In this document: positions 30,415 through 45,610 of the stretch, in pieces
How the letters are laid out: every line of letters begins with the position of its first letter
How positions within the stretch are numbered: position 1 is the stretch's first letter
Virus record (IMG/VR): IMGVR_UViG_3300033146_001150
Location: 4,595-68,594 of that record
Origin: a virus
Direction: 5' to 3' (one strand)
Length of the DNA: 64,000 nt
Notes under the pieces: generated by a model
The model's database searches: none
What the model saw: only the letters and a program-made list of their open reading frames with translations
What the model was told of the DNA's origin: nothing
Translations under genes and position numbers: made by a program

Positions 30415-30497
30415 TGGTAGGTGGTAGATTGGCAATACAACCGGCTGTTAACCGGTGGGGAAACCCTATGCAGGTTCGAATCCTGTCTTACCAGCCA
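30415..30497 (+). tRNA. tRNA-Asn(GTT) with long variable arm
   Basis: ACCGG-CTGTTAA-CCGGT; G73; encoded CCA. Confidence 0.85.
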
Positions 30498-30508
30498 CAT
30501 ATATTTAT

Positions 30509-30584
30509 AGGCGATTAGTTCAGTCGGTAGAACATCAGATTTTGATTCTGAGGGTCGGAGGTTCAAGTCCTTCATCGCCTACCA
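30509..30584 (+). tRNA. tRNA-Gln(TTG)
   Basis: TCAGA-TTTTGAT-TCTGA; CCA. Confidence 0.88.
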
Positions 30585-30588
30585 TTAC

Positions 30589-30676
30589 GGAAGATTAGTG
30601 TAATTGGTAACACAGCACCCTGCTAAGGTGTAGCCCCGTGAGGGGCTTGGAGATTCGAGTTCTTCATCTTCCGCCA
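30589..30676 (+). tRNA. tRNA-Ser(GCT)
   Basis: GCACC-CTGCTAA-GGTGT; long variable arm; G73, CCA. Confidence 0.88.
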
Positions 30677-30695
30677 TTTATTTTTATTAAATGTA

Positions 30696-30724
30696 TTGAC
30701 TTTTAATAAAACATAATGTATATT
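30696..30724 (+). promoter_or_regulatory. sigma70-like promoter
   Basis: TTGACT-N17-TATATT. Confidence 0.6.
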
Positions 30725-30768
30725 ATAATTAAGAGTTTTACTAGTGGAACTTAATCCTCACTAGATAC

Positions 30769-30851
30769 GGAAGGTTGGACAATGGTTGTTAAGCAGTCTT
30801 GAAAACTGTCGCCCGTAAGGGTTGTAGGTTCGAATCCTACACCTTCCGCCA
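30769..30851 (+). tRNA. tRNA-Ser(TGA)
   Basis: GCAGT-CTTGAAA-ACTGT; variable arm; CCA. Confidence 0.88.
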
Positions 30852-30890
30852 TTTTATTGTCAATAATAGTTATGATACTAAAAAATAAAT

Positions 30891-30965
30891 CGGTGATTGG
30901 GGTATTGGATGCCCGCTACATTTGGGATGTAGTTTAAGCAAGTTCGATTCTTGCATCACCGACCA
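30891..30965 (+). tRNA. tRNA-Pro(TGG)
   Basis: CTACA-TTTGGGA-TGTAG; C1-G72, A73, CCA. Confidence 0.85.
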
Positions 30966-30973
30966 AGTTATAT

Positions 30974-31082
30974 GGGGTACTCGCTCAACCAAGTGGTATG
31001 GTTGGGTCTACGAGCCTAGGTAGTTACCGTAGACCGCTTTATGATGAAGCTGAGTCGGTTCAAATCCGATGGGTCCCCACCA
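30974..31082 (+). ncRNA. enlarged tRNA-like RNA ending in ACCA
   Basis: GGGG/CCCC-ACCA acceptor, canonical T-arm, extended D stem, 8-bp stem with 15-nt loop in place of the anticodon arm. Confidence 0.55.
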
Positions 31083-31088
31083 ACACAT

Positions 31089-31737
31089 AGGAGTTAAGCA
31101 ACTCCTTCTAATTAAAATGCTACGGTCAGCGTTAAATTGTTGTTATTGTGGACATAAACAATTTAAGAGAACTTTGGATGCACAATCATCTTTTGTTCGA
31201 AACCTGATTATGAGTGGTAAGTTCGGTAGGTTTTCGGTTCGATTCCGTGAATTTTGAGACACCTCCTGGCTGTGGGCTGGGAAAGGTTACTCAAAGAATG
31301 ATATTGGTAATACTCGCTGAACGAGTCGGTTCGAATCCGATATTTGTATGTGTGTAGCGGATGTAATGGCACAGCTCGTAAGAGTAACATGGTTCGATTC
31401 CCTGCTGTTATGCATATATGTCGTGATCTTCCAGTCAAACGGAAGTCTGTCAATAAAAGGCACGGTGTAGGGAGCAATGGCTCCCCTTCACGGCACAATA
31501 TATGGTGAATGAGTTTTAGTCTTTAGATTGACAGTATTCACTATTAGGACGTGGTAATTCACTCCAATTCCGAGATTGAGAAATCAATTTTCGCAGTAGT
31601 TTGGGATATCTACTATAAAAAAATCCCTAATTAAAAGCGGCTTTGGTGCAAGAGAACACGGGTATGGTGATGATTGTAGCTGAGACCATACCACCCACTA
31701 CAAGGGGAGCAGAGAGAATGGCTCTGCAAGTCGCACA
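31089..31737 (+). ncRNA. cluster of structured/tRNA-like small RNAs, or one large ncRNA
   Basis: GC-richer than flanks, no credible ORF, several GGTTCGA(A/T)TCC T-loops and closed multi-stem units. Confidence 0.5.
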
Positions 31738-31773
31738 TTATATTGTATTGATTATTTTAATTTAAGGGTTTTT

Positions 31774-32247
31774 ATGAAAAAGATTGTTTTATTGTTAGTG
31801 TTTTTAGTTTCTATGGTAATGTCTGAGCAAATGACAACAGATGATATGTATAATTGGATTATACAAGTTCAAGGAGATTCTACTGAAATCACAACAACCG
31901 ATTCGATGTATACATTTTTATTTTACACAAAGTGGAGATCGAACTTCTCTATCAGGGAAATGGACCAAGGAACAGTATATCCTGATTATTCTAGTATGGA
32001 TTGGACATTTAATATTGATAAGAAAATTGGATATGTTCTTGATATTACAGAGAATGTCACCTCATTTTATAAAATAGAAGATTTGAATTGGTATGAGTCT
32101 GATGGTAAAAATAGTATGGTTATTTCAATGAAACTCACCTCTAATGTTGGTAATACATACCACGCTATTATCAACCATGCGAATAAATCGTTAATATTGG
32201 TTGGTGAGATGGACCATGTTGTTATTCGAAGATATTATTTTAAATAA
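31774..32247 (+). CDS. exported hypothetical protein
   Basis: MKKIVLLLVFLVSMVMS signal peptide. Confidence 0.65.
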   Translation: MKKIVLLLVFLVSMVMSEQMTTDDMYNWIIQVQGDSTEITTTDSMYTFLFYTKWRSNFSIREMDQGTVYPDYSSMDWTFNIDKKIGYVLDITENVTSFYKIEDLNWYESDGKNSMVISMKLTSNVGNTYHAIINHANKSLILVGEMDHVVIRRYYFK

Positions 32248-32260
32248 CTAATAGTAACAA

Positions 32261-32335
32261 CCATCCTTAGCCAATTGGGAAGGCAGCGGTCTGCAAAACC
32301 GCTATGACTCAGTTCGATTCTGAGAGGGTGGTCCA
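32261..32335 (+). tRNA. tRNA-Cys(GCA)
   Basis: GCGGT-CTGCAAA-ACCGC; U73, CCA. Confidence 0.9.
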
Positions 32336-32345
32336 AAAATTATAT

Positions 32346-32420
32346 GCAGCGGTCGTCTAATGGTTAGGACTCATGGTTTTCATCCATGCAATCGGGTTTC
32401 GACTACCCGTCGCTGTACCA
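32346..32420 (+). tRNA. tRNA-Glu(TTC)
   Basis: CATGG-TTTTCAT-CCATG; CCA. Confidence 0.88.
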
Positions 32421-32428
32421 CATTTAAT

Positions 32429-32505
32429 GGACCGGTAGCACAATTGGTTAGTGCACCAGCCTGTCACGCTGGTGGTTGAGGGTTCGAGTCCCTTCCGGTT
32501 CGCCA
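32429..32505 (+). tRNA. tRNA-Asp(GTC)
   Basis: CCAGC-CTGTCAC-GCTGG; G73, CCA. Confidence 0.92.
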
Positions 32506-32582
32506 TTTCATCTTAGATGATATCGTCTTGTCCGTCAGTACGAGCGATATAAAATAAATAAGAACACTGACAACAGTTAAGT

Positions 32583-32659
32583 GCTACTTTAGCTCAGTTG
32601 GTAGAGCATCGGACTGAAAATCCGAGTGTTCCCTGGTTCAATCCCAGGAGGTAGCACCA
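32583..32659 (+). tRNA. tRNA-Phe(GAA)
   Basis: TCGGA-CTGAAAA-TCCGA; CCA. Confidence 0.92.
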
Positions 32660-32666
32660 ACTTTAT

Positions 32667-32743
32667 GCCATCTTAGCTCAATTGGTTAGAGCAACGGTCC
32701 TGTAAACCGTAGGTTGTGAGTTCGACTCTCACAGATGGCTCCA
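32667..32743 (+). tRNA. tRNA-Thr(TGT) with C33
   Basis: ACGGT-CCTGTAA-ACCGT; G1-C72, C2-G71; CCA. Confidence 0.8.
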
Positions 32744-32748
32744 TTTAT

Positions 32749-32825
32749 AGGGAATTAGTTCAGTTGGTTAGAACATCCGAATCATAATCGGAAGGTCGCT
32801 GGTTCGAGTCCAGTATTCCCAACCA
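32749..32825 (+). tRNA. tRNA with CAT anticodon (Met or Ile2), A1:A72 mismatch
   Basis: TCCGA-ATCATAA-TCGGA; CCA. Confidence 0.82.
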
Positions 32826-32848
32826 CACAAATTAAATCATTAAAGTCC

Positions 32849-32877
32849 TTGACATTTTAAATGACTTATTATATATT
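32849..32877 (+). promoter_or_regulatory. sigma70-like promoter
   Basis: TTGACA-N17-TATATT. Confidence 0.7.
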
Positions 32878-32908
32878 ATATCATAGAAACAACTAACATA
32901 TTAAAAGG

Positions 32909-33409
32909 ATGTGTATAATGAAGAAGATTTCAGTAGTAGCTACAGTTGTAGCATTAGTATCAATTACGATTGGTGTTATTATTTACAATCAAACTCAAAC
33001 ATTTACTAATTTAAACATACAAGACAATCTTGGTGCATTAGCGTTTGGGTTTAATGATGAGGATATCATCGATGTTGATGTTAAAGTAGAAACTAATAGA
33101 CGTACCGTTCGTATGACTATGGGCAATCCTCCAAAAAAAGCGATTATTGTTGAAATGAGTCACGAAACAGCAGAGCTAGTATTTAATAAATATAAAGATA
33201 GCAAAGAAGCATCTACTACATATAACTCTGTTGTTGTATATGACGTGTCTAATTCAGACACCACTCTTATTGGTACGGATTCAAAATTTAGATCTTTTGG
33301 TGTTAATGGGTTTTATTTCTTTATTAGTGATAATATTAAATCTGAATTTGGGTGTATGCTTGCTTTATCCGAAGACTGTCGTGATGAAGTTCGGAGAAAA
33401 ATTAACTAA
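32909..33409 (+). CDS. membrane-anchored hypothetical protein
   Basis: N-terminal hydrophobic helix. Confidence 0.6.
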   Translation: MCIMKKISVVATVVALVSITIGVIIYNQTQTFTNLNIQDNLGALAFGFNDEDIIDVDVKVETNRRTVRMTMGNPPKKAIIVEMSHETAELVFNKYKDSKEASTTYNSVVVYDVSNSDTTLIGTDSKFRSFGVNGFYFFISDNIKSEFGCMLALSEDCRDEVRRKIN

Positions 33410-33479
33410 CGTTGATAATACATATATACTATCGGGTGGTCATATGACCATCTGTAATATATTTAAAATGAGGTGAATA

Positions 33480-33830
33480 TTGGAAAACTTATTTACATTT
33501 AAAGGTAGAACCACTAGACCTATGTACTGGATATCTCAACTATTGTATGGAACAGTATATGCTCTGATGATGATCGGTCTCCGTGAAGGTAATGATGCTA
33601 TGACTTATATTGGAATTATTGGAGTTGCTATTGGGTTTGTTCCTGCTGTTGGCATACAAGTCCGTAGATTTCATGATTTAAATAAATCTGGGGCATTAGT
33701 ATTAATAAACTTGATACCTTATGTTGGGGGTTGGATTACCCTAATAATGTTGGGATTTATGGGACCAGTGAATACATTAGATAATACTAATACTTATGGT
33801 GTAGATCCTCGTAGTAGTGTATCAGAATAA
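33480..33830 (+). CDS. DUF805/YhaH-like inner membrane protein
   Basis: FTFKGRTTRPMYW, VRRFHDLNKSG, LIPYVG, NTYG.DP. Confidence 0.85.
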   Translation: MENLFTFKGRTTRPMYWISQLLYGTVYALMMIGLREGNDAMTYIGIIGVAIGFVPAVGIQVRRFHDLNKSGALVLINLIPYVGGWITLIMLGFMGPVNTLDNTNTYGVDPRSSVSE

Positions 33831-33927
33831 TTGATATAAATCGTGAGTTTATAGGTAGTGAATCGATTGATAAATATAAGTTAAAACCTAAGCCAGTGAG
33901 ATTCTGGCATTTTATTAAATAAAGTGC

Positions 33928-33956
33928 TTGACATATATAGCGACTTGGTATATATT
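33928..33956 (+). promoter_or_regulatory. sigma70-like promoter
   Basis: TTGACA-N17-TATATT. Confidence 0.7.
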
Positions 33957-33983
33957 ATATGTATGTTTAACAATGAGGTTTAT

Positions 33984-34184
33984 ATGAGTAGAAATTCAAA
34001 TTATAAAGTACCAACAGTGATTATTAACGGAAATGAAACTACATATAAAAATTTAGTATTTGCTGAGAGAGCATATAGAAAAAATTTATATGAAAATGAG
34101 CATGATCCAAATTATAAAATAATCATGGTATATAATAATTTTATTTATTATGCTAATTATGAAACTGACGAATTTAAAAAATAA
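33984..34184 (+). CDS. hypothetical protein
   Basis: GAGGT RBS before ATG 33984; downstream of promoter. Confidence 0.55.
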   Translation: MSRNSNYKVPTVIINGNETTYKNLVFAERAYRKNLYENEHDPNYKIIMVYNNFIYYANYETDEFKK

Positions 34185-34191
34185 TTAAAAT

Positions 34192-34269
34192 GCACCAGTA
34201 GTTCAGTAGGATTAGAACGGGGCACTTCTAATGCTCAGGTCGGGGGTTCGAATCCTCCCTGGTGTACCA
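34192..34269 (+). tRNA. tRNA-Arg(TCT)
   Basis: GGGCA-CTTCTAA-TGCTC; CCA. Confidence 0.9.
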
Positions 34270-34300
34270 TTTACTTTAATAAACTTTAAACGAAAGAATA

Positions 34301-34492
34301 ATGATAATGAAATTAATTGAAATTGAAACAGACTATTATATTAATTCTGAACATATATTAGGGATTAAAATCCTCAATAATGGTCCATGTGTTAAATTCT
34401 ATATGTCTAATAGCACCACTGTAGTTAAGTGTTATACCACTGAGAAGGAGCTTCAGGACATGATATCACGTTTAGGTATGGAGACTGTATGA
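34301..34492 (+). CDS. hypothetical protein
   Basis: ORF; YINSEHI motif; stop overlaps next start. Confidence 0.5.
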   Translation: MIMKLIEIETDYYINSEHILGIKILNNGPCVKFYMSNSTTVVKCYTTEKELQDMISRLGMETV

Positions 34493-34698
34493 CTAAAATC
34501 GTTATCCATGATAAGGCGTGTATAAAATGTATATACTTTGATATGGATGATTCAATTGAGGGTAGAGGTCTTTGTAAAAAGACTCCTCCTCAAATGAATA
34601 GCTATAACGGTGGAGGTGAATGGGCAAGAGTGAAGTATAATGATTGGTGTTATGGTCATGGCTTTAATCCCTTATGGGAAAAACGAATAAAGAAGTAA
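34489..34698 (+). CDS. small Cys-rich protein
   Basis: CIKC...GLCKKTPP...DWC. Confidence 0.55.
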   Translation: MTKIVIHDKACIKCIYFDMDDSIEGRGLCKKTPPQMNSYNGGGEWARVKYNDWCYGHGFNPLWEKRIKK

Positions 34699-34702
34699 CT
34701 AT

Positions 34703-34939
34703 ATGTCTATACTTAGTTGTGATGTATGTTTCCATATAGGAAATTCTTCTGAATTTTCATCTATAAGTGAAATGACGTATTATCATATATGTATAAAGTT
34801 TGGGTCTAAATATGTTGATAAATTATTAGAAACTGATACTAGATATATATGCATGGATTGTATTAATACGTTGAAAAAAATGAATGATGCTAATTATTAT
34901 CATATAATTAATCATCCAAATAAAAATAAAAAAGTTTAA
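34703..34939 (+). CDS. small Zn-finger-like protein
   Basis: CDVC...CMDC. Confidence 0.5.
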   Translation: MSILSCDVCFHIGNSSEFSSISEMTYYHICIKFGSKYVDKLLETDTRYICMDCINTLKKMNDANYYHIINHPNKNKKV

Positions 34940-34946
34940 AAAAAGG

Positions 34947-34975
34947 TTGACATTATAGTATTTTTGATATATACT
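34947..34975 (+). promoter_or_regulatory. sigma70-like promoter
   Basis: TTGACA-N17-TATACT. Confidence 0.7.
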
Positions 34976-35016
34976 ATAGTCATATATAAATTGAAAGTCT
35001 AAAAAGGACGGTTGAC

Positions 35017-35640
35017 ATGGAAATGACTCTTACGAGAGCACTCAATGAAGTTAAACTCATTGAAAAGAAGATTATGAAGTATACGAATACAGACCTAACA
35101 TGGGTGTCTATTAGTAAGAATGGTAAAATTGGTCCTCGTGCCATTGACGCTGCTAAACTTGAAAGTACAGTTAAAGAAAACAAATCGAGTTTTATGGATC
35201 TCGTTACCCGTAGAAATGTTATTAAACGTCGGATTCTTGACGCAAATAACAGTACAAGTCTTACCGTTGATGGTATTTCATATACAATTGCTGAGGCTAT
35301 CGATCTCAAATCATTTATTGAAACTGAGAAATTAGTATATAGAACTATTATTGCTCAAATTAGAAGTACTGATGGGCTATTTGCTGATAAACAAGATGAT
35401 CTTAATGATCTTGTAGAACGTACTATTTCCAATGCTCTTCAGGGTGATGGGAAAAAAGACCCAACTCTTGTTTCTGGTATTGAGAAGTCAGTTCGTGATA
35501 ATAATAAAATTGTACTTGAAGACCCTTGCAATATTCGTGAGTGGGCAACAAGTAAACTTGAATCTGTAGATGTATTTCTTAATGAGATTGATTTCAGTCT
35601 TAGTGAGATTAATGCAACTACTAAAATTTCAGTAGATTAA
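35017..35640 (+). CDS. DIP1984/DUF6847-like coiled-coil protein
   Basis: MTLTRAL, AN.ST, YTIAEAI and C-terminal LSEINATTKI motifs. Confidence 0.6.
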   Translation: MEMTLTRALNEVKLIEKKIMKYTNTDLTWVSISKNGKIGPRAIDAAKLESTVKENKSSFMDLVTRRNVIKRRILDANNSTSLTVDGISYTIAEAIDLKSFIETEKLVYRTIIAQIRSTDGLFADKQDDLNDLVERTISNALQGDGKKDPTLVSGIEKSVRDNNKIVLEDPCNIREWATSKLESVDVFLNEIDFSLSEINATTKISVD

Positions 35641-35645
35641 TATAT

Positions 35646-35952
35646 AAGTGATTGGTTGTATTGGTAGCGAAAAACTATTAATACAATCCGCCAAGCATTG
35701 CGATAAATGCTTACAATCTAATGAGGAAAATACTATTAGGAAATGCTGATACCATTACCAAAGATATAGTGAAACTAAAGCTAATAAGCTTAAAGTTTAA
35801 ACTTAAAAGATTAAATGATAAACTATAATGTTCTAAACATTTAACGTTTAAATGATAAAATTGTCTGAAATCTCTGAGTTAGTTTTTCAGGTTTTAGAAT
35901 TGTTTAACCTATAGTTTTGTACAGAGCTGCTATTTAGTACAGCCAATCACTT
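35646..35952 (+). ncRNA. ~310-nt structured RNA with closing long-range stem and UAAA-repeat loop
   Basis: AAGTGATTGGTTGTATTGGTAGC pairs with GCTATTTAGTACAGCCAATCACTT; internal hairpins; ~12 TAA(A)-initiated 6-8-nt units; T run after the stem. Confidence 0.65.
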
Positions 35953-35964
35953 TTTTATATACAT

Positions 35965-36041
35965 GAGCTGTTAACTTAGTTGGTTAAAGTACCTTTCTCA
36001 TAAAAAGGAGACCCAGGGTTCAAGTCCCTGACAGCTCACCA
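35965..36041 (+). tRNA. tRNA with CAT anticodon (elongator Met or Ile2)
   Basis: CCTTT-CTCATAA-AAAGG; CCA. Confidence 0.85.
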
Positions 36042-36063
36042 ATACAATATAATGATACTAAGC

Positions 36064-36136
36064 CCGTGAGTAGTTCAATCGGTTAGAGCACTAGCCTGTG
36101 ACGCTAGAAATTTGGATTCGAGTTCCAACTTGCGGA
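36064..36136 (+). tRNA. tRNA-His(GTG)-like, no encoded CCA
   Basis: CTAGC-CTGTGAC-GCTAG; normal D and T arms. Confidence 0.65.
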
Positions 36137-36202
36137 CTTAGTATTATTTTAATAATTTAAATTTTAACGAGGGTGTGGTGGAATAGGTAGACACTCAAGA
36201 CT

Positions 36203-36685
36203 TTGAGATATTTAATGTATGAAAACTGTGTAATATATGGTCCATATACTAGTGATGATGGTAGATTACGTATTTATGTTTCTGGTGATACTATAAATAC
36301 TACAATATCTTATCCTAAGTATATTATGGAATGTTATATTAATAGGTATTTATTGCCTAATGAAATTGTACACCATATTGATGGTGATGTTTCAAATAAT
36401 GATATATCTAATTTAATTGTACTAGATCGGTCAGAGCATGCTAAATTGCATGCTAACCGATTAATTGAGCAAGAATTTGTATGTCCTTATTGTAATACAT
36501 CATTTATTCTTGTAGGTACTAAATTGAAAAATGCTATAGCGAACAGCAAACGTGGTAAACGTGGACCGTTCTGTTGTAGAAGCTGTGCTGGTAAATATGG
36601 AAGATCTATTCAATTGGGACTTATCTCCCCTATAGATGAAACTATAATTACCCCAACATACATTAATACCATTGAGCGGCTATAA
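36203..36685 (+). CDS. intron-encoded HNH homing endonuclease (start possibly ATG 36215)
   Basis: VHHIDGDVSNNDISNL...EHAKLH; C-terminal CPYC...FCCRSC. Confidence 0.85.
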   Translation: MRYLMYENCVIYGPYTSDDGRLRIYVSGDTINTTISYPKYIMECYINRYLLPNEIVHHIDGDVSNNDISNLIVLDRSEHAKLHANRLIEQEFVCPYCNTSFILVGTKLKNAIANSKRGKRGPFCCRSCAGKYGRSIQLGLISPIDETIITPTYINTIERL

Positions 36686-36927
36686 TGAAAATTATAGTTA
36701 GAATCGGATGAATTCAGGGAACCCTTATCAGATTATACTGATGGCAATCCTGAGCGAAGCCTTACACGATACTTGTAAGGAACGTGCAGAGACTAGATGG
36801 TTTAGCAGGCGTGCTATGTAATACATCATTAGCGTCCGACATCTAAACAGATTAAGCTGTAGATGATGATATAGTCCAGACCACAAATATACATATTAAG
36901 TATAGCTACGAAAGTAGTAGTGGTATG
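36204..36927 (+). mobile_element. group I intron (IC3-like) with HNH ORF in L1
   Basis: P/Q/R/S-like elements AATTCAGGGAAACC, AATCCTGAGC, GCAGAGACTA, GATATAGTCC; ATTGAGC guide; terminal G. Confidence 0.88.
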
Positions 36928-37003
36928 AAAATCTTGTGGGCGTAAGCTCGTGCGGGTTCAAGTCCCGCCACCCTTACCATTTCAACAAAAAAAGAGGAAA
37001 AAT

Positions 37004-37231
37004 ATGATTAAAGAACCAAGCAAAGAAGAAGTAAAAACCATAGCAAAGGACCTTGGGATTAAAGTAACACAATCGGTTGTCACTGAGGAGTCTGTTGTTG
37101 TCCGTCGCCATAAAACAAAACAGCAATTAATCATTGCGATCCAAAATTCAGAAGGAAATAGTCCGTGTTATAAAGCTATTACTGGATGTGGACAAACTGA
37201 CTGCTGTTGGTTTTCGTCTTGTCAAAAATAG
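37004..37231 (+). CDS. SAP/Rho-N-like small protein with Cys-rich tail
   Basis: IAKDLGIK...KQQLIIAIQNSEGNSPC...CGQTDCCW...C; GAGG RBS. Confidence 0.65.
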   Translation: MIKEPSKEEVKTIAKDLGIKVTQSVVTEESVVVRRHKTKQQLIIAIQNSEGNSPCYKAITGCGQTDCCWFSSCQK

Positions 37232-37262
37232 ACATTAGAAATTTATATAAGTATTAATGTAT

Positions 37263-37336
37263 AGCGGGATGTAGTAAGGGTAGCTTGTCAGTCTCATAAG
37301 CTGACGTTGGGGGTTCGAATCCCTCTCCCGCAACCA
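37263..37336 (+). tRNA. initiator-like tRNA-Met(CAT)
   Basis: AGCGGGA/TCCCGCA acceptor with 1:72 mismatch; CTCATAA loop; CCA. Confidence 0.82.
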
Positions 37337-42889: not shown

Positions 42890-43343
42890 TTTGTTTGTAT
42901 ATTTTAAAAAATTACACGAAGATGCTATTTTACCAGAATATGCTACTCCTGGTTCTGCTGGTATGGATTGTGTTACTGTTACTGATGGTGTAGATAAAGG
43001 TGAGTATATCCAATATAAATTAGGATTTTCTGTTAAAATTCCTGAAGGTTATGTTGGGTATTTATTTCCTAGAAGTTCTATTAGCACAACTGATCTATCG
43101 TTGAGTAATTCGGTTGGGGTTATTGATAGTGATTATAGAGGAGAAGTTCAGGCAAGATTTTTTGCTAAAAATTTTAGCCCGTTATCTAAAACTCTAGATG
43201 CCAGGACGAAATACAAGTATCATAAAGGTGATAGAGTGTGTCAATTGATTATCATGCCTATACCTAGAGTTGCATCTCAATGGGTTGATGAATTAGATGA
43301 TACCGTAAGAGGTGATGGTGGTCATGGGAGTACCGGGCGATGA
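42879..43343 (+). CDS. dut: trimeric dUTPase
   Basis: SAGMD, PRSS, GVIDSDYRGE, RGDGGHGSTG. Confidence 0.93.
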   Translation: MNTNLFVYFKKLHEDAILPEYATPGSAGMDCVTVTDGVDKGEYIQYKLGFSVKIPEGYVGYLFPRSSISTTDLSLSNSVGVIDSDYRGEVQARFFAKNFSPLSKTLDARTKYKYHKGDRVCQLIIMPIPRVASQWVDELDDTVRGDGGHGSTGR

Positions 43344-43498
43344 TAGAAATTCTAGTTGTAATTTTATTAATTATACTATTAATAAAATTTATAAACACAT
43401 TTTTTATACTTATAGGGATTGGGTTATTATTTTATGGGTTAATTATACCAGGACTCATATGTTTAATATTGGGATTCATACTCCCTAAGAAATTATAA
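43340..43498 (+). CDS. small hydrophobic membrane protein (52 aa)
   Basis: ATGA overlap with dut; MIEILVVILLII... Confidence 0.45.
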   Translation: MIEILVVILLIILLIKFINTFFILIGIGLLFYGLIIPGLICLILGFILPKKL

Positions 43499-43585
43499 AA
43501 CTTATATAAATAACCATACCCCTTCAAAGAGGCTGATTCTTGTCAGCCTCATTTATTTAAACATTTACCGATAGGAATTTAATCT

Positions 43586-45610
43586 ATGAATAGTAAACAA
43601 TTTATATCTGATATTATCGTATATTCGAAGTATGCTAAATATGATCAGGATTTAAAAAGACGAGAAAACTGGTCAGAAATCATTATGAGAAATGCGGATA
43701 TGCACGCTAGACGATATCCTGAACTTGCAGATGAAATCTACTATGTATATGCTAAATACGTAATCCCTAAAAAAGTATTTCCGTCTATGCGTAGTCTTCA
43801 ATTTGCTGGAAAAGCGATTGAAGTAACTCCAAACAGAATCTTCAATTGTGCATTTTCAGCGGCAGACCACCCAGCAATCTTTTCAGAAACTATGTTTAAT
43901 TTATTAGGTGGTTGCGGTGTAGGGTACTCTGTACAAAAACATCATGTTGAACAGCTCCCTGAAGTTAAAAAACAAAAAAATAAAAGAATTAAACGATATT
44001 TAATTCCAGATTCTATTGAAGGATGGTCTGAGGCTATTAAAGTGCTCATGAAATCGTATTTCAAAGGATCATCTAAGGTTATGTTTGATTATTCTGATAT
44101 TAGACCTAAAGGTACTGAATTGGTAACTGCTGGTGGTAAAGCACCTGGACCCGCACCTCTTAAAGAATGTATTGATATTATCACTGAAAAATTAGATAGA
44201 TTGATTGAAGATGGTGACGGATCTCATAAATTATTACCAATTGAAGTGCATGATATCCTATGTGTTATATCTGATGCCGTTCTTGCTGGTGGTATTCGTA
44301 GATCTGCATTAATATCTTTATTTTCGCTCGATGATGAGTTAATGTTAACGGCTAAAGGTAATTTTAAATTTAAATCTACTGTAGCTCCGAAAATTAATGG
44401 TGATAATGTTATTCTTGAAGGGTCATATAAAGGAGTTCGTAAAGAGGTATATATCACAAAAAACCAATACGATAACTATAAGGAAACAGGAACATTGCCT
44501 TGGTACTTCTTTGAAGAACAACGTGGTCGTGCAAATAATTCTGTGGTATTAGAATATGATAAAGTCACACGGGAAGATTTTGATAGAATTTGGAAAATTG
44601 TAGAGAATTCAGGGGCGGGTGAGCCTGGTGTGTATTGGACTCATGATAGAGATCTTGGGACAAATCCATGTGCTGAAATTTCAATAAAATCTAAAGGATA
44701 TTGTAATCTTACAGAAGTTATAGCTGATGGCATTGACACTCAAGAAGAATATAACAATAGAGCACGAGCAGCATCGTTTTTGGGTACTTTACAGGCAGGT
44801 TATACCAACTTCCATTATCTAAGACCTGAGTGGCAAGATAACGCCGAGGATGAAGCCTTATTAGGCGTTTCTATGACAGGTATCGCTTCTGGTGATGTGT
44901 TAAAACTTGATATGGTTGAAGCAGGAAAAGCTGCCGCAGATGAAAATGAACGTGTGGCTAAATTAATTGGTACTAATAAAGCTAAACGAGTAACTACTGT
45001 TAAGCCTAGTGGAACAGCATCTCTTGTTGCTGGAACTAGTTCTGGTATTCATGCTTGGCACGCACCATATTATGTGAGACGTATCCGTATCAATAAAGAT
45101 GAAGCACTGTATTCATATTTAAGTGATAAACTTCCTACTTCATGGTTAGAAGATGATATGTTCAGTCCTGATACAACAGCAGTCCTTGCAGTTCCTGTAA
45201 AAGCCCCTGATGGTGCTATCTTTAGAGATGAATCATCTGTTGATCTTATGGAGCGTGTTAAAAAAGTTCATGATGAATGGATTGCTAATGAATATACACA
45301 TAGAGAAGGTTTAAACACCCACAATGTGTCTGTTACTGTATCAATAGCTGATGATGATTGGGGTAGTGTAGGTGATTGGATGTGGGAAAATCGACATTCA
45401 TATCATGGTATTTCAGTGTTACCGTTGAATACAGGAACATATATGCAAATGCCATTCACTGATTCTACAAAAGAAGAATATGATAGATTAATTGCTGAAG
45501 TAGCAAATCTTAATATTAATCTCGATGATGTTATTGAGGAACACGATAATACGGATTTAAGCGGTGAATTGGCATGTTCTGGTGGATCATGTGAAATTTC
45601 AACAATCTAA
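43586..45610 (+). CDS. nrdJ: class II (B12-dependent) ribonucleotide reductase
   Basis: IFNCAF, GGIRRSA, NPCAEI, KPSGT, C-terminal ACSGGSCE. Confidence 0.92.
   Translation: MNSKQFISDIIVYSKYAKYDQDLKRRENWSEIIMRNADMHARRYPELADEIYYVYAKYVIPKKVFPSMRSLQFAGKAIEVTPNRIFNCAFSAADHPAIFSETMFNLLGGCGVGYSVQKHHVEQLPEVKKQKNKRIKRYLIPDSIEGWSEAIKVLMKSYFKGSSKVMFDYSDIRPKGTELVTAGGKAPGPAPLKECIDIITEKLDRLIEDGDGSHKLLPIEVHDILCVISDAVLAGGIRRSALISLFSLDDELMLTAKGNFKFKSTVAPKINGDNVILEGSYKGVRKEVYITKNQYDNYKETGTLPWYFFEEQRGRANNSVVLEYDKVTREDFDRIWKIVENSGAGEPGVYWTHDRDLGTNPCAEISIKSKGYCNLTEVIADGIDTQEEYNNRARAASFLGTLQAGYTNFHYLRPEWQDNAEDEALLGVSMTGIASGDVLKLDMVEAGKAAADENERVAKLIGTNKAKRVTTVKPSGTASLVAGTSSGIHAWHAPYYVRRIRINKDEALYSYLSDKLPTSWLEDDMFSPDTTAVLAVPVKAPDGAIFRDESSVDLMERVKKVHDEWIANEYTHREGLNTHNVSVTVSIADDDWGSVGDWMWENRHSYHGISVLPLNTGTYMQMPFTDSTKEEYDRLIAEVANLNINLDDVIEEHDNTDLSGELACSGGSCEISTI

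What the first reader, a model, noticed from the sequence alone, without database searches (positions are those of the whole stretch)
34947..35956. Candidate new RNP system: DIP1984-like coiled-coil protein plus downstream ~310-nt closed RNA with a 7-nt-periodic UAAA loop
Seen: a dedicated sigma70-like promoter (34947-34975) precedes a 207-aa helical protein with an internal two-fold pseudo-repeat (MTLTRAL...ANNSTSLTV and YTIAEAI...INATTKISV). Immediately after its stop, a ~23-bp long-range stem (35646-35668 with 35929-35952) closes a ~310-nt region and is followed by a T run. Inside are hairpins (AAGCATT/AATGCTT, CTAAT/ATTAG, AGGTT/AACCT), pairings CTCTG/CAGAG and GAAAAACT/AGTTTTTC, and an apparently unpaired ~90-nt tract of ~12 units starting TAA(A): TAAAGC, TAAGCT, TAAAGTT, TAAACT, TAAAAGAT, TAAATGA, TAAACTA, TAATGTTC, TAAACATT, TAACGTT, TAAATGA, TAAAATTG. 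Inference: periodic single-stranded repeats are how ring or filament proteins such as TRAP and Hfq read RNA. The co-transcribed protein may therefore oligomerise on this RNA, as a scaffolded RNP or an RNA-antitoxin/anti-defence module. The DIP1984/DUF6847 assignment is from motif memory, and I know of no described function for this pair.
Basis: partly seen in the sequence, partly recalled or inferred. Interest (0 to 1): 0.85.

Follow-up and report, generated by a model that had tools for sequence, protein, structure and literature searches.

The report
Knotted heptamer-repeat RNA with partner protein
Directly behind a small helical-protein gene this phage encodes a real, intricately folded non-coding RNA of about 310 bases that displays about a dozen evenly spaced 7-base units, and the same gene-plus-RNA pair recurs in hundreds of phages (T5 included) and in bacterial chromosomes, so it is probably an undescribed RNA-protein particle whose job is unknown.

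Summary
ORF 35017-35640 (207 aa, PHROG 1491, no Pfam or NCBIfam family) is followed by an ORF-free RNA, 35646-35952. The RNA is closed by a 24-bp helix. It contains an H-type pseudoknot, two further long-range helices, and a 106-nt tract with 13 UAA spaced 6-8 nt apart.

Comparative evidence shows it is a conserved RNA family:
- A covariance model of its 3' domain finds one hit in the window (E 9e-13).
- The model hits 55 of 66 phage or metagenome loci that encode the protein. In three of them the RNA lies upstream of the gene.
- It hits 59 of 68 bacterial genome loci that were not used to build it.
- Every helix shows compensatory changes.

No Rfam family matches the RNA. Phage T5 carries the pair (T5.085 plus an unannotated gap).

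The protein is predicted to form a dimer. It resembles only the uncharacterised C. diphtheriae structure 3KDQ, and only remotely. Binding of the protein to the repeat tract is inferred, not shown, and the function is unknown.

This scan has already found the same module on other DNA in at least six windows. Their link to the Rfam motif RAGATH-27 was not reproduced here.

The parts
34947..34975 (+). sigma-70-like promoter TTGACA-17-TATACT ahead of the protein gene
   Evidence: It matches 11 of 12 positions and is the best site in 34600-36200. This is a consensus match only.
35017..35640 (+). Gene for a 207-aa helical protein of the PHROG 1491 family (the T5.085 family)
   Evidence: ORF. PHROG 1491 at E 1.8e-40. 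AF2 model with pLDDT 92.6. 677 phage records hold a homolog, and the family has 3058 clusters at 50% identity.
35646..35669 (+). P1, 5' strand of the closing helix. It ends in the conserved junction YG followed by AA.
   Evidence: 24 of 24 pairs with 35928-35952. An equivalent helix with a different sequence is present in the relatives: in 36 representatives the pairs are 361 WC, 95 GU and 15 AC.
35671..35678 (+). P4, 5' strand (AAAACUAU). It pairs long-range with 35911-35918.
   Evidence: 8 of 8 pairs. Across 36 representatives the self runs average 6.22 against 4.67 for cross-locus pairs, and 0 of 2000 permutations reach that. RNAalifold finds the same helix in the Pseudomonas-phage subfamily.
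35683..35687 (+). P5, 5' strand (ACAAU). It pairs with the loop of the P3.1 hairpin at 35899-35903.
   Evidence: 5 of 5 pairs. Across 36 representatives the self value is 6.28 against 5.37 +/- 0.18, reached by 0 of 1000 permutations. 3 of 6 pairs are compensatory in alignment A4.
35689..35712 (+). H-type pseudoknot: S1 is CGC 35689-91 with GCG 35700-02; S2 is AAGCAUU 35693-99 with AAUGCUU 35706-12
   Evidence: All pairs form. A pseudoknot of 10 bp or more lies at the same place in 29 of 36 representatives against 74 of 360 shuffles. Both stems covary in A4.
35713..35761 (+). Variable arm, holding the hairpin CUAAU 35718-22 with AUUAG 35735-39
   Evidence: The hairpin pairs 5 of 5. This arm differs in length and content among relatives, and in four of them it holds a called tRNA.
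35762..35867 (+). Array of about 12 units of 7-8 nt, each starting UAA(A), predicted to be mostly unpaired
   Evidence: One search gives the counts and the rank within the window. The periodicity is conserved: lag-7/8 identity is 0.44/0.40 against 0.24/0.25 in 38 representatives, and 23 of 23 bacterial loci exceed 0.38.
35868..35876 (+). Conserved AAAUC motif and P3 5' strand (CUCUG 35872-76)
   Evidence: P3 pairs 5 of 5 with 35922-35926. In 35 sequences no P3 pair is broken in pairs 1-4, and there are up to five pair types per position. Anchor control: 36 of 41 at the site against 0 of 149 elsewhere.
35889..35910 (+). P3.1 hairpin, AGGUU with AACCU. Its loop carries the P5 3' strand AUUGU at 35899-35903.
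   Evidence: I read a hairpin at this place with different stem sequences in the relatives listed.
35911..35918 (+). P4, 3' strand (AUAGUUUU)
35922..35929 (+). P3 3' strand (CAGAG) running into the conserved GCUG
   Evidence: GCUG is nearly invariant in alignment A3.
35928..35952 (+). P1, 3' strand
35951..35956 (+). Run of six T after P1, a possible transcript end
   Evidence: Read from the sequence. The terminator scan did not call it. In other families a separate G+C-rich hairpin followed by a T run comes after the RNA.
35965..36041 (+). tRNA-Met(CAU), the next gene. It is a neighbour, not part of the RNA.
   Evidence: ARAGORN and Rfam at 67.8 bits.

Best explanation
The locus is one transcription unit: promoter, gene for a dimer-forming helical protein, then a ~310-nt non-coding RNA ending in a T run. 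It belongs to a widespread, uncatalogued gene-plus-RNA module.

The RNA has a compact, doubly knotted core. The closing helix P1 ends in a conserved YG|AA ... GCUG junction. Helix P3 carries the hairpin P3.1. Two long-range helices, P4 and P5, thread the 5' strand into the 3' domain. There is also a 5' H-type pseudoknot. This core holds out a ~100-nt single-stranded array of about 12 units of 7-8 nt, each with an A-rich centre (UAAA(G)).

My best reading is a ribonucleoprotein. Dimers of the neighbouring protein dock side by side on the array, one unit per binding lobe. The knotted core seals both RNA ends against exonucleases and may start the assembly.

The RNA begins 6 nt after the stop codon. 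Ribosomes finishing the ORF must therefore open P1, so translation and RNA folding on one molecule would exclude each other. That would allow feedback by the protein.

Shown computationally: the RNA fold and its conservation, the gene-RNA linkage in phages and bacteria, the strand, the periodic array, and a predicted homodimer.

Inferred: that the protein binds the RNA at all, that it binds the array, and the stoichiometry. The cellular job is unknown.
For: The RNA is real
- The fold has z -4.5.
- Model R1 gives a single hit in the window, E 8.9e-13, with the next best at 0.65.
- The hit next to the gene is the top hit in 5 of 5 complete phage genomes.
- No ORF lies in the RNA region.

Structure with covariation
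- P3 has 0 broken pairs in pairs 1-4 among 35 sequences, with up to 5 pair types. Control: 36 of 41 against 0 of 149.
- P1 ends at the same junction in the relatives.
- P4: 0 of 2000 permutations reach the observed value. P5: 0 of 1000.
- The pseudoknot is present in 29 of 36 representatives against 74 of 360 shuffles.
- In 9 Pseudomonas-phage sequences 99.1% of 351 cells pair, against 37-48% when the partners are slid. 12 of 39 pairs are compensatory against 4.0 +/- 1.2, and 0 of 500 shuffles reach that.
- Strand: 95 G-U against 15 A-C.

Linkage to the protein gene
- 55 of 66 phage or metagenome loci have the RNA at E <= 0.016. All are on the gene's strand, and 3 have the RNA upstream of the gene.
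- Of the other 11 loci, 6 are cut by the contig end and 1 starts inside the gene. Of the remaining 4, three (L025, L028, L057) carry a divergent copy that I read by eye from the sequences printed; L026 is almost identical to L025.
- 59 of 68 bacterial genome loci, none of them in the seed, have the RNA downstream on the + strand at E <= 0.1.

The array is conserved in period, not in sequence.

Protein
- The AF2 model has pLDDT 92.6.
- Homodimer: complex prediction gives 0.64 against 0.00 for the best of 3 controls. That mark was reached by 20 of 30 proteins solved as pairs of one chain and by 1 of 23 solved as single chains. The counts hold only roughly because my own alignment was used. The runs agree in at least 97% of contacts, and the partner pLDDT is 88.
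- By my reading of the model's secondary structure, not by a structural calculation, the conserved residues R7, E11, K13, R66, K70, N77, A94, I95, K98, D192, S196, E197 and N199 lie at the helix ends near the short strands.
Against: - No experiment or computation here shows protein-RNA contact.
- The protein family is slightly acidic (median pI 5.87, net charge -1; the window protein has pI 5.29) and has no known RNA-binding domain.
- Tandem Repeats Finder sees no array.
- In the Pseudomonas-phage subfamily RNAalifold pairs parts of the array with each other. Those pairs never covary and some are broken, so 'single-stranded' is a prediction.
- In the window's own subfamily a local hairpin, GGUUGUAUUGGUAG...CUAUUAAUACAAUCC, competes with the inner part of P1 and with P4. 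The fold may therefore switch.
- 9 of 68 bacterial loci gave no R1 hit.
Confidence: 0.55

Rival explanations
1. The array is a sponge or landing pad for a conserved host factor, such as ribosomal protein S1, Hfq, RNase E/Y, the ribosome or a tRNA-modifying enzyme. The neighbouring protein would be a helper or be functionally unrelated to binding.
For: The array motif (Y)AAAG(N)U is much the same in phages of Gram-negative and Gram-positive hosts and in bacteria. That would suit a universal partner. The adjacent protein is not basic. From my own knowledge, A/U-rich single strands are typical S1, Hfq and RNase E ligands.
Against: No single candidate factor is shared by all hosts. From my own knowledge, Hfq and RNase E are missing or different in many Bacillota. 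The strict gene-RNA linkage in either order points to the encoded protein as the partner.
Confidence: 0.15
2. The RNA acts mainly in cis, as a long structured 3' (or 5') untranslated region that controls the stability or translation of the protein's own mRNA. It would not be a free RNA or particle.
For: The RNA starts 6 nt after the stop codon and ends at a T run. One promoter serves both. Gene and RNA are always on the same strand.
Against: A 300-450-nt RNA with two or three pseudoknots and a 12-unit array is far more than mRNA stabilisers need. The RNA is found on either side of the gene. In some relatives it carries a whole tRNA inside it. In L059 it sits directly after a tRNA.
Confidence: 0.1
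3. The module serves tRNA biology. It would be a tRNA-like decoy or scaffold, for instance against anticodon nucleases, or a processing platform, which would explain its place in phage tRNA clusters.
For: The window RNA lies inside a cluster of 15 tRNAs. 11 of 20 phage loci have a tRNA within the 1.5-2.5 kb fetched on each side of the gene, and 1 more (L027) has only a tmRNA. tRNAs are embedded in the variable arm of L029, L036, L042 and L028, three of them with unusual A34 anticodons. A tmRNA lies directly after the RNA in L027 and L034. In T5 relatives the tRNA region holds anti-defence genes (passages of bioRxiv 10.1101/2023.03.15.532788).
Against: Only 3 of 23 bacterial loci have a tRNA within 1.2 kb, and the neighbours there are housekeeping genes. 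The window's own RNA has no tRNA-like arm. In SP15 the module lies about 4.5 kb outside my estimate of the ~8-kb anti-defence island tested in that paper; the estimate comes from the positions of ORF71-75 and tRNA-Tyr. PADLOC gives no match.
Confidence: 0.1
4. It is a type III-like toxin-antitoxin pair in which the repeat RNA neutralises a toxic protein.
For: There is a repeat-containing RNA next to a small protein gene on one transcript.
Against: From my own knowledge, type III antitoxins are tandem ~36-nt repeats placed upstream of an endoribonuclease. Here the units are 7-8 nt and degenerate. The RNA has a large unique folded core. The protein is an all-helical bundle with no nuclease match. 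The module is kept in strictly lytic phages.
Confidence: 0.04
5. It is a DNA element, such as iterons of an origin or a packaging site flanked by inverted repeats, and not an RNA.
For: Short periodic A/T-rich repeats between inverted repeats resemble origins.
Against: The helices hold 95 G-U against 15 A-C, which is strand-specific. The pseudoknots covary. The element always has the same orientation as the gene. A 7-8-bp period does not match the DNA helical repeat.
Confidence: 0.02

Closest known systems
CsrB/RsmZ-type sponge RNAs with the CsrA/RsmE dimer
   Same: One RNA displays many copies of a short motif at intervals, and a small homodimeric protein could load onto it several times.
   Different: Csr motifs are GGA in hairpin loops, and CsrA is a beta-sheet protein encoded elsewhere in the genome. 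Here the motif is A-rich in a 7-8-nt register, the RNA has a knotted core, and the protein is helical and always encoded next to the RNA. No homology was found.
TRAP with the trp leader (11 (G/U)AG triplets), and HutP
   Same: Evenly spaced short single-stranded repeats would be read by repeated protein units.
   Different: TRAP is an 11-mer beta-sandwich ring that reads triplets 2-3 nt apart in a leader that regulates downstream genes. Here the period is 7-8 nt, the protein is a helical predicted dimer, and there is no regulated downstream operon, because the downstream genes differ between loci.
Bacterial Ro60 (Rsr) with Y RNA (YrlA)
   Same: An RNA closed by a long 5'/3' helix is encoded next to its protein partner on the same strand, sometimes carries a tRNA-like module, and occurs in both bacteria and phages.
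   Different: The protein is not a TROVE/vWA ring. Rfam YrlA does not match the window RNA at E <= 10. There is only a weak hit (E 0.39) in the variable arm of L072. Y RNAs have no repeat array.
GOLLD and ROOL ornate RNAs of phages
   Same: They are large, intricately folded, function-unknown RNAs found in phage genomes near tRNAs, sometimes with tRNAs inside. This resemblance is from my own knowledge and from the listing.
   Different: Neither family gives an Rfam match. Those RNAs are 580-800 nt, form RNA-only cages and have no dedicated protein gene.
RAGATH-27 RNA motif (Rfam RF03100). Earlier notes of this scan named it as covering the first 86 nt of such RNAs.
   Same: It is an orphan candidate RNA motif of unknown function. 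I could not check the claimed overlap.
   Different: The window gives no match at E <= 10. The 53 relatives' loci give none at E <= 1 or at the gathering score. Five complete phage genomes that carry the module give none at the module at E <= 10. No paper in the library holds the name.
Structure 3KDQ, an uncharacterised C. diphtheriae protein (DIP1984 by my recollection)
   Same: It is the top match for the protein by three methods, and the motif (T/L)(I/L)AEA(I/L) at a helix start is shared.
   Different: It has 154 aa against 207. Identity is 15-17%, rmsd is 9.6-12.9 A, and the scores are in the grey zone for helical bundles. Its function is unknown, so the likeness explains nothing.

Membership tests
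PHROG 1491 (labelled 'tail fiber protein') | Full-length match to the family profile | tested here: met
   E 1.8e-40, residues 2-206 on profile positions 4-209 of 211. The label is an annotation, not a tested function. In T5 the member, T5.085, lies among non-structural neighbours as annotated: exonuclease, endolysin, tRNA amidotransferase.
DIP1984 family (bacterial; the name is recalled) | Match to a curated NCBIfam model | tested here: not met
   At E <= 10 NCBIfam gives only TIGR03321, at 14.2 bits against a cut-off of 224.7. Five bacterial members give only chance hits.
DIP1984 family (bacterial; the name is recalled) | Same fold as structure 3KDQ | tested here: inconclusive
   Profile E 0.064. 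Foldseek E 2.3e-3, probability 1.00, TM 0.41/0.51. VIA-align Z 9.9, rmsd 9.6, 150 residues aligned, ranked first but below the ~13 advised for helical bundles.
Pfam DUF6847 (PF20935) | Score at or above the gathering cut-off of 27 bits | tested here: not met
   The window protein has no hit at E <= 10. 4 of 29 relatives hit, with best E 0.031. 0 of 5 phage genomes are over the cut-off, and the best is 16.9 bits. In the Atlas the nearest named cluster scores 0.88 and 16% of its members carry the family.
Rfam RAGATH-27 (RF03100) | Covariance-model match at the gathering score of 76.1 bits | tested here: not met
   No hit in window 35400-36100 at E <= 10, and none in 53 relatives' loci. In 5 phage genomes the only hits lie elsewhere or on the other strand, at E 0.07-1.7.
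Any other Rfam 15 family (tmRNA, YrlA, GOLLD, ROOL, 6S and the rest) | Match at the gathering score over the RNA | tested here: not met
   Only embedded or neighbouring tRNAs, tmRNAs and one skipping-rope RNA were found.
Type III toxin-antitoxin (ToxIN-like) | Tandem repeats of ~36 nt upstream of an endoribonuclease toxin gene | tested here: not met
   There is no tandem array by TRF and the units are 7-8 nt. The protein is a helical bundle with no PADLOC hit. The defining features are from my own knowledge.
Ro60/Y RNA module | A TROVE-domain protein next to the RNA | tested here: not met
   Pfam gives no family and the AF2 model is all-helical.

The most novel reading that the evidence does not exclude
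The pair is a so far unrecognised, ancient ribonucleoprotein of Bacillota and other bacteria that large lytic phages have borrowed repeatedly. In this reading, helical protein dimers polymerise in a fixed 7-8-nt register along an RNA 'rack' held by a doubly knotted core. That would make it a small nucleocapsid-like filament with a cellular role of its own, such as sequestering or delivering the protein or shielding an RNA end. It would be a new class alongside Ro-Y RNA, CsrA-CsrB and tmRNA-SmpB.
Probability: 0.3. Interest if true: 0.9.

Novelty: categorically new. Interest (0 to 1): 0.8.

Why it matters
- A conserved, doubly knotted RNA of 300-450 nt with a dedicated partner gene sits unannotated in one of the classic model phages (T5: T5.085 plus the gap 43142-43504). 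It is also in hundreds of other phages, including therapeutic candidates against Salmonella, E. coli, Klebsiella, Pseudomonas and Bacillus, and in the chromosomes of common Bacillota.
- Neither partner has a curated family or a known function. The RefSeq label 'tail fiber protein' is probably misleading.
- If the pair is a ribonucleoprotein, it adds a new kind to the short list of bacterial RNA-protein particles. It would also give a new example of register-based RNA recognition.
- It can be tested directly in T5 with E. coli and in Bacillus.

Tried and rejected
- Known RNA family: rejected. Rfam gave nothing at the gathering score or at permissive E-values on the window and 53 loci. RF03100 gave nothing at the module on 5 genomes.
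- Coding region: rejected, there is no ORF.
- Anti-retron protein Rad of T5 relatives: rejected. Rad is ORF75 of SP15 (189 aa), and our protein is E0157_083.
- ORF71-73 of SP15, which neutralise retron Ec83: they are small ORFs at 34.7-35.4 kb, not this module. The supplements of that preprint, which may list the island's ORFs, were not opened.
- Defence or anti-defence protein by PADLOC: no match.
- Expression: the look-up of sequencing runs listed 4 DNA holders with shares 0.48, 0.44, 0.07 and 0.05, and no RNA holder.
- blastn of the locus against phages found only the tRNA part.
- Single-sequence folds of three distant relatives' gaps gave only z -1.9 to -2.7.
- The first genome-contig scan, with A1, found 0 relatives because its patterns were too narrow. 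The second, with A6, found 68.
- Literature searches that found no description of the pair: 'DIP1984' (1 paper, unrelated), 'septicolysin' (34), phage/ncRNA/tRNA-cluster/heptanucleotide (8), GOLLD+ROOL+bacteriophage from 2022 (5), T5/transcriptome/non-coding RNA, phage-encoded/structured RNA/covariation (6), 'T5-like'+ncRNA (13), 'T5.085' (0), 'RAGATH-27' (0). I saw listings and abstracts only, except for passages of 10.1101/2023.03.15.532788. Subscription journals are not covered.
Full report
What is there.

The window is most of an IMG/VR virus record of 68,594 bp that CheckV rates 31% complete. It holds a cluster of 15 tRNA genes at 30415-37336.

Inside the cluster, a promoter-like site (34947-34975, 11 of 12 matches) precedes an ORF of 207 aa at 35017-35640. 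The next 320 nt hold no ORF of 40 aa or more on either strand. They fold far better than shuffles: -72.5 against -53.4 +/- 4.2 kcal/mol, z -4.5. tRNA-Met follows at 35965.

The A-rich tract 35762-35867 stands out in the window. It has 13 UAA spaced 6-8 nt apart and 9 UAAA against a mean of 1.51. Only the tract itself reaches that count among 6390 windows.

The protein.

Pfam gives nothing, NCBIfam only a chance hit (TIGR03321, E 0.029), and PADLOC nothing. PHROG 1491, labelled 'tail fiber protein', matches over the full length at E 1.8e-40.

tblastn finds full-length relatives at 25-32% identity in 677 phage records. They include T5-like phages of Salmonella, Escherichia and Vibrio, Pseudomonas Otagovirus, Bacillus Bastillevirinae, Vequintavirinae, Erwinia jumbo phages and Lactococcus phages. 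A profile search counts 3058 clusters at 50% identity with E <= 1e-3, nearly all of the 150 listed being 195-231 aa.

The AF2 model is confident (pLDDT 92.6) and is a helical bundle with short strands at one end. The only structural relative is 3KDQ, an uncharacterised C. diphtheriae protein that I recall as DIP1984. The scores are profile E 0.064, Foldseek E 2.3e-3 and VIA-align Z 9.9. This is a remote likeness, not membership.

DUF6847 stays under its cut-off. The internal two-fold repeat is weak in sequence: BLASTP finds nothing, and hhalign gives E 0.0024 at probability 12%.

A symmetric homodimer is predicted with score 0.64 against 0.00 for the best of 3 controls. The mark was reached by 20 of 30 proteins solved as pairs of one chain and 1 of 23 solved as single chains. 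Those counts hold only roughly because my own alignment was used. The runs agree in at least 97% of contacts, and the partner pLDDT is 88. The family is slightly acidic, with median pI 5.87.

The RNA is a family.

In seven annotated GenBank phages the homolog is followed by an unannotated gap of 368-495 nt. Reading the sequence downstream of the gene in 62 loci from IMG/VR, metagenomes and GenBank showed the same plan almost everywhere.

I built a covariance model (R1) from 35 copies of the 3' domain, which is AAAUC, a 5-bp helix P3, about 45 nt, P3' and GCUG.
- It gives one hit in the window, 35866-35933 at E 8.9e-13, with the next best at 0.65.
- It hits 55 of 66 loci at E <= 0.016, always on the gene's strand.
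- Of the other 11 loci, six are cut by the contig end and one starts inside the gene. Of the remaining four, three (L025, L028, L057) carry a divergent copy that I read by eye in the sequences printed; L026 is almost identical to L025.
- In L019, L046 and L059 the RNA lies upstream of the gene, so the linkage does not depend on gene order.
- In 5 of 5 complete phage genomes the top hit is the one beside the gene.
- T5 and SP15 carry the pair. In T5 it is T5.085 (43505-44143, minus strand) with the R1 hit at 43155-43218 in an unannotated stretch.

After I read earlier notes of this scan, I repeated the scan of prokaryote genomes with a narrower alignment. It returned 68 loci, among them the Bacillus pumilus group, B. 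paralicheniformis, Brevibacillus, Paenibacillus, Exiguobacterium, Clostridium, Moraxella and several MAGs.
- R1 had seen none of these, yet it hits 59 of 68 at E <= 0.1, all about 190-350 nt downstream of the gene on its strand.
- The array periodicity is present in 23 of 23 examined.
- In three loci examined the neighbours that Pfam could name are housekeeping genes. Only 3 of 23 loci have a tRNA nearby.

Structure.

(i) P1. In the relatives the 5' and 3' ends pair, each family with its own sequence. The inner end is always YG|AA on the 5' side and GCUG on the 3' side. In 36 representatives the pairs are 361 Watson-Crick, 95 G-U and 15 A-C, which fixes the strand.

(ii) P3. In 35 sequences the pairs are CG 35; CG 21 and UA 14; five types; five types. 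None of these four pairs is broken. Because I had picked the seed by requiring pairing, I ran a control on sequence anchors alone. All four flanking positions pair at 36 of 41 true sites and at 0 of 149 anchor pairs elsewhere.

(iii) P4. The 6-9 nt after the junction pair with the segment just before P3'. Self runs average 6.22 against 4.67 for cross-locus pairs, and 0 of 2000 permutations reach that.

(iv) P5. The next 5' segment pairs with the interior or hairpin loop of the 3' domain. The self value is 6.28 against 5.37 +/- 0.18, reached by 0 of 1000 permutations.

(v) An H-type pseudoknot of 10 bp or more lies at a constant place in 29 of 36 representatives, against 74 of 360 shuffles.

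As an independent check, RNAalifold on nine Pseudomonas-phage sequences found P1, P4 and P5 by itself. On that alignment my six-helix model has 99.1% of 351 cells paired, against 37-48% when the partners are slid. 12 of 39 pairs have compensatory changes against 4.0 +/- 1.2, and 0 of 500 shuffles reach that. Every helix has at least one such pair.

(vi) The array. In 38 representatives identity peaks at lags 7 and 8 (0.44 and 0.40 against 0.24 and 0.25). The spacing of A-runs has its mode at 7 (137 cases), then 8 (85).

In the window all these helices are perfect.

Two points remain unresolved.
- In the window's own subfamily a local hairpin can replace the inner part of P1 and P4.
- The window has two copies of the P4 partner, 35881-88 and 35911-18.

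What it is not.

No Rfam 15 family matches the RNA in the window (gathering score and E <= 10). None matches in 53 relatives' loci, where only tRNAs, two tmRNAs and one skipping-rope RNA appear, either beside the RNA or embedded in it.

Earlier notes of this scan name RAGATH-27 (RF03100) as covering the first 86 nt of such RNAs. I could not reproduce this here (and the four calls above), and no paper in the library holds the name.

Nine literature searches found no description of the pair. The T5-family anti-retron protein Rad and the Ec83 blockers are other genes.

How it most likely works.

The strict, order-independent linkage of one protein gene with one RNA, across phages of very different hosts and in bacterial chromosomes, argues that the two act together. 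The array keeps its period and its A-rich centre while the flanking letters drift. That is what repeated docking sites for a protein look like.

The partner is predicted to be a dimer of a two-lobed monomer. I therefore favour a ribonucleoprotein in which several dimers sit in register on the array while the knotted core protects and organises the RNA. I give this about 0.55.

The rivals are a host-factor sponge, a cis-acting UTR, a tRNA-linked decoy, a toxin-antitoxin pair and a DNA element. Each is listed with its evidence.

The tRNA-cluster position in phages, the embedded tRNAs (three of four with A34 anticodons) and the adjacent tmRNAs remain unexplained.

Verdict.

The RNA and its pairing with the protein gene are as solid as comparative analysis can make them. 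The particle and its function are hypotheses that can be tested directly in T5.

The same module was already reported by this scan on other DNA in at least six windows. This report adds an independent structure model, the test on bacterial loci, and a negative check of the RAGATH-27 link.

Noticed in passing
window 36166-36980: A group I intron (Rfam RF00028, 92 bits, 36654-36900) and an HNH endonuclease ORF (36203-36685; PHROG 14913, E 5.6e-21) follow a tRNA-like 5' half that starts near 36172.
   Followed up: partly
L029 1897-1971; L036 1733-1804; L042 2217-2293; L028 2243-2313; L092 2171-2247: Whole tRNA genes sit inside the RNA's variable arm, or in L092 directly after the RNA. Four of the five have anticodons beginning with A and made only of A and U (AAU, AAU, AUU, AUU). 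Bacteria do not normally use these for decoding, so these may be structural or decoy tRNA-like modules.
   Followed up: partly
L027 520-801; L034 2519-3085: A phage-encoded tmRNA lies immediately after the heptamer-repeat RNA in two related marine-type contigs.
   Followed up: no
L080 2228-2356: In Paenibacillus xylaniclasticus a skipping-rope RNA (RF02924, 54.1 bits, above the gathering score) lies right after the module's RNA.
   Followed up: no
window 35654-35689: A local hairpin, GGUUGUAUUGGUAG-CGAAAAA-CUAUUAAUACAAUCC, competes with the inner half of P1 and with P4. The alternative is kept in the five closest relatives. It could be a folding intermediate or a switch.
   Followed up: partly
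NC_005859.1 43505-44143 (T5.085), and many RefSeq phage records: RefSeq and PHROG label this family 'tail fiber protein'. No evidence for that appeared here, and in T5 the annotated neighbours (exonuclease, endolysin, tRNA amidotransferase) are not structural genes, so the label is probably an annotation error that has spread.
   Followed up: partly
L072 1904-1977: A weak Y RNA-like (YrlA, RF02553) match, E 0.39, lies inside the variable arm of the RNA in an archaeal-labelled MAG contig. It hints that the arm can be a tRNA-like module of the YrlA kind.
   Followed up: no
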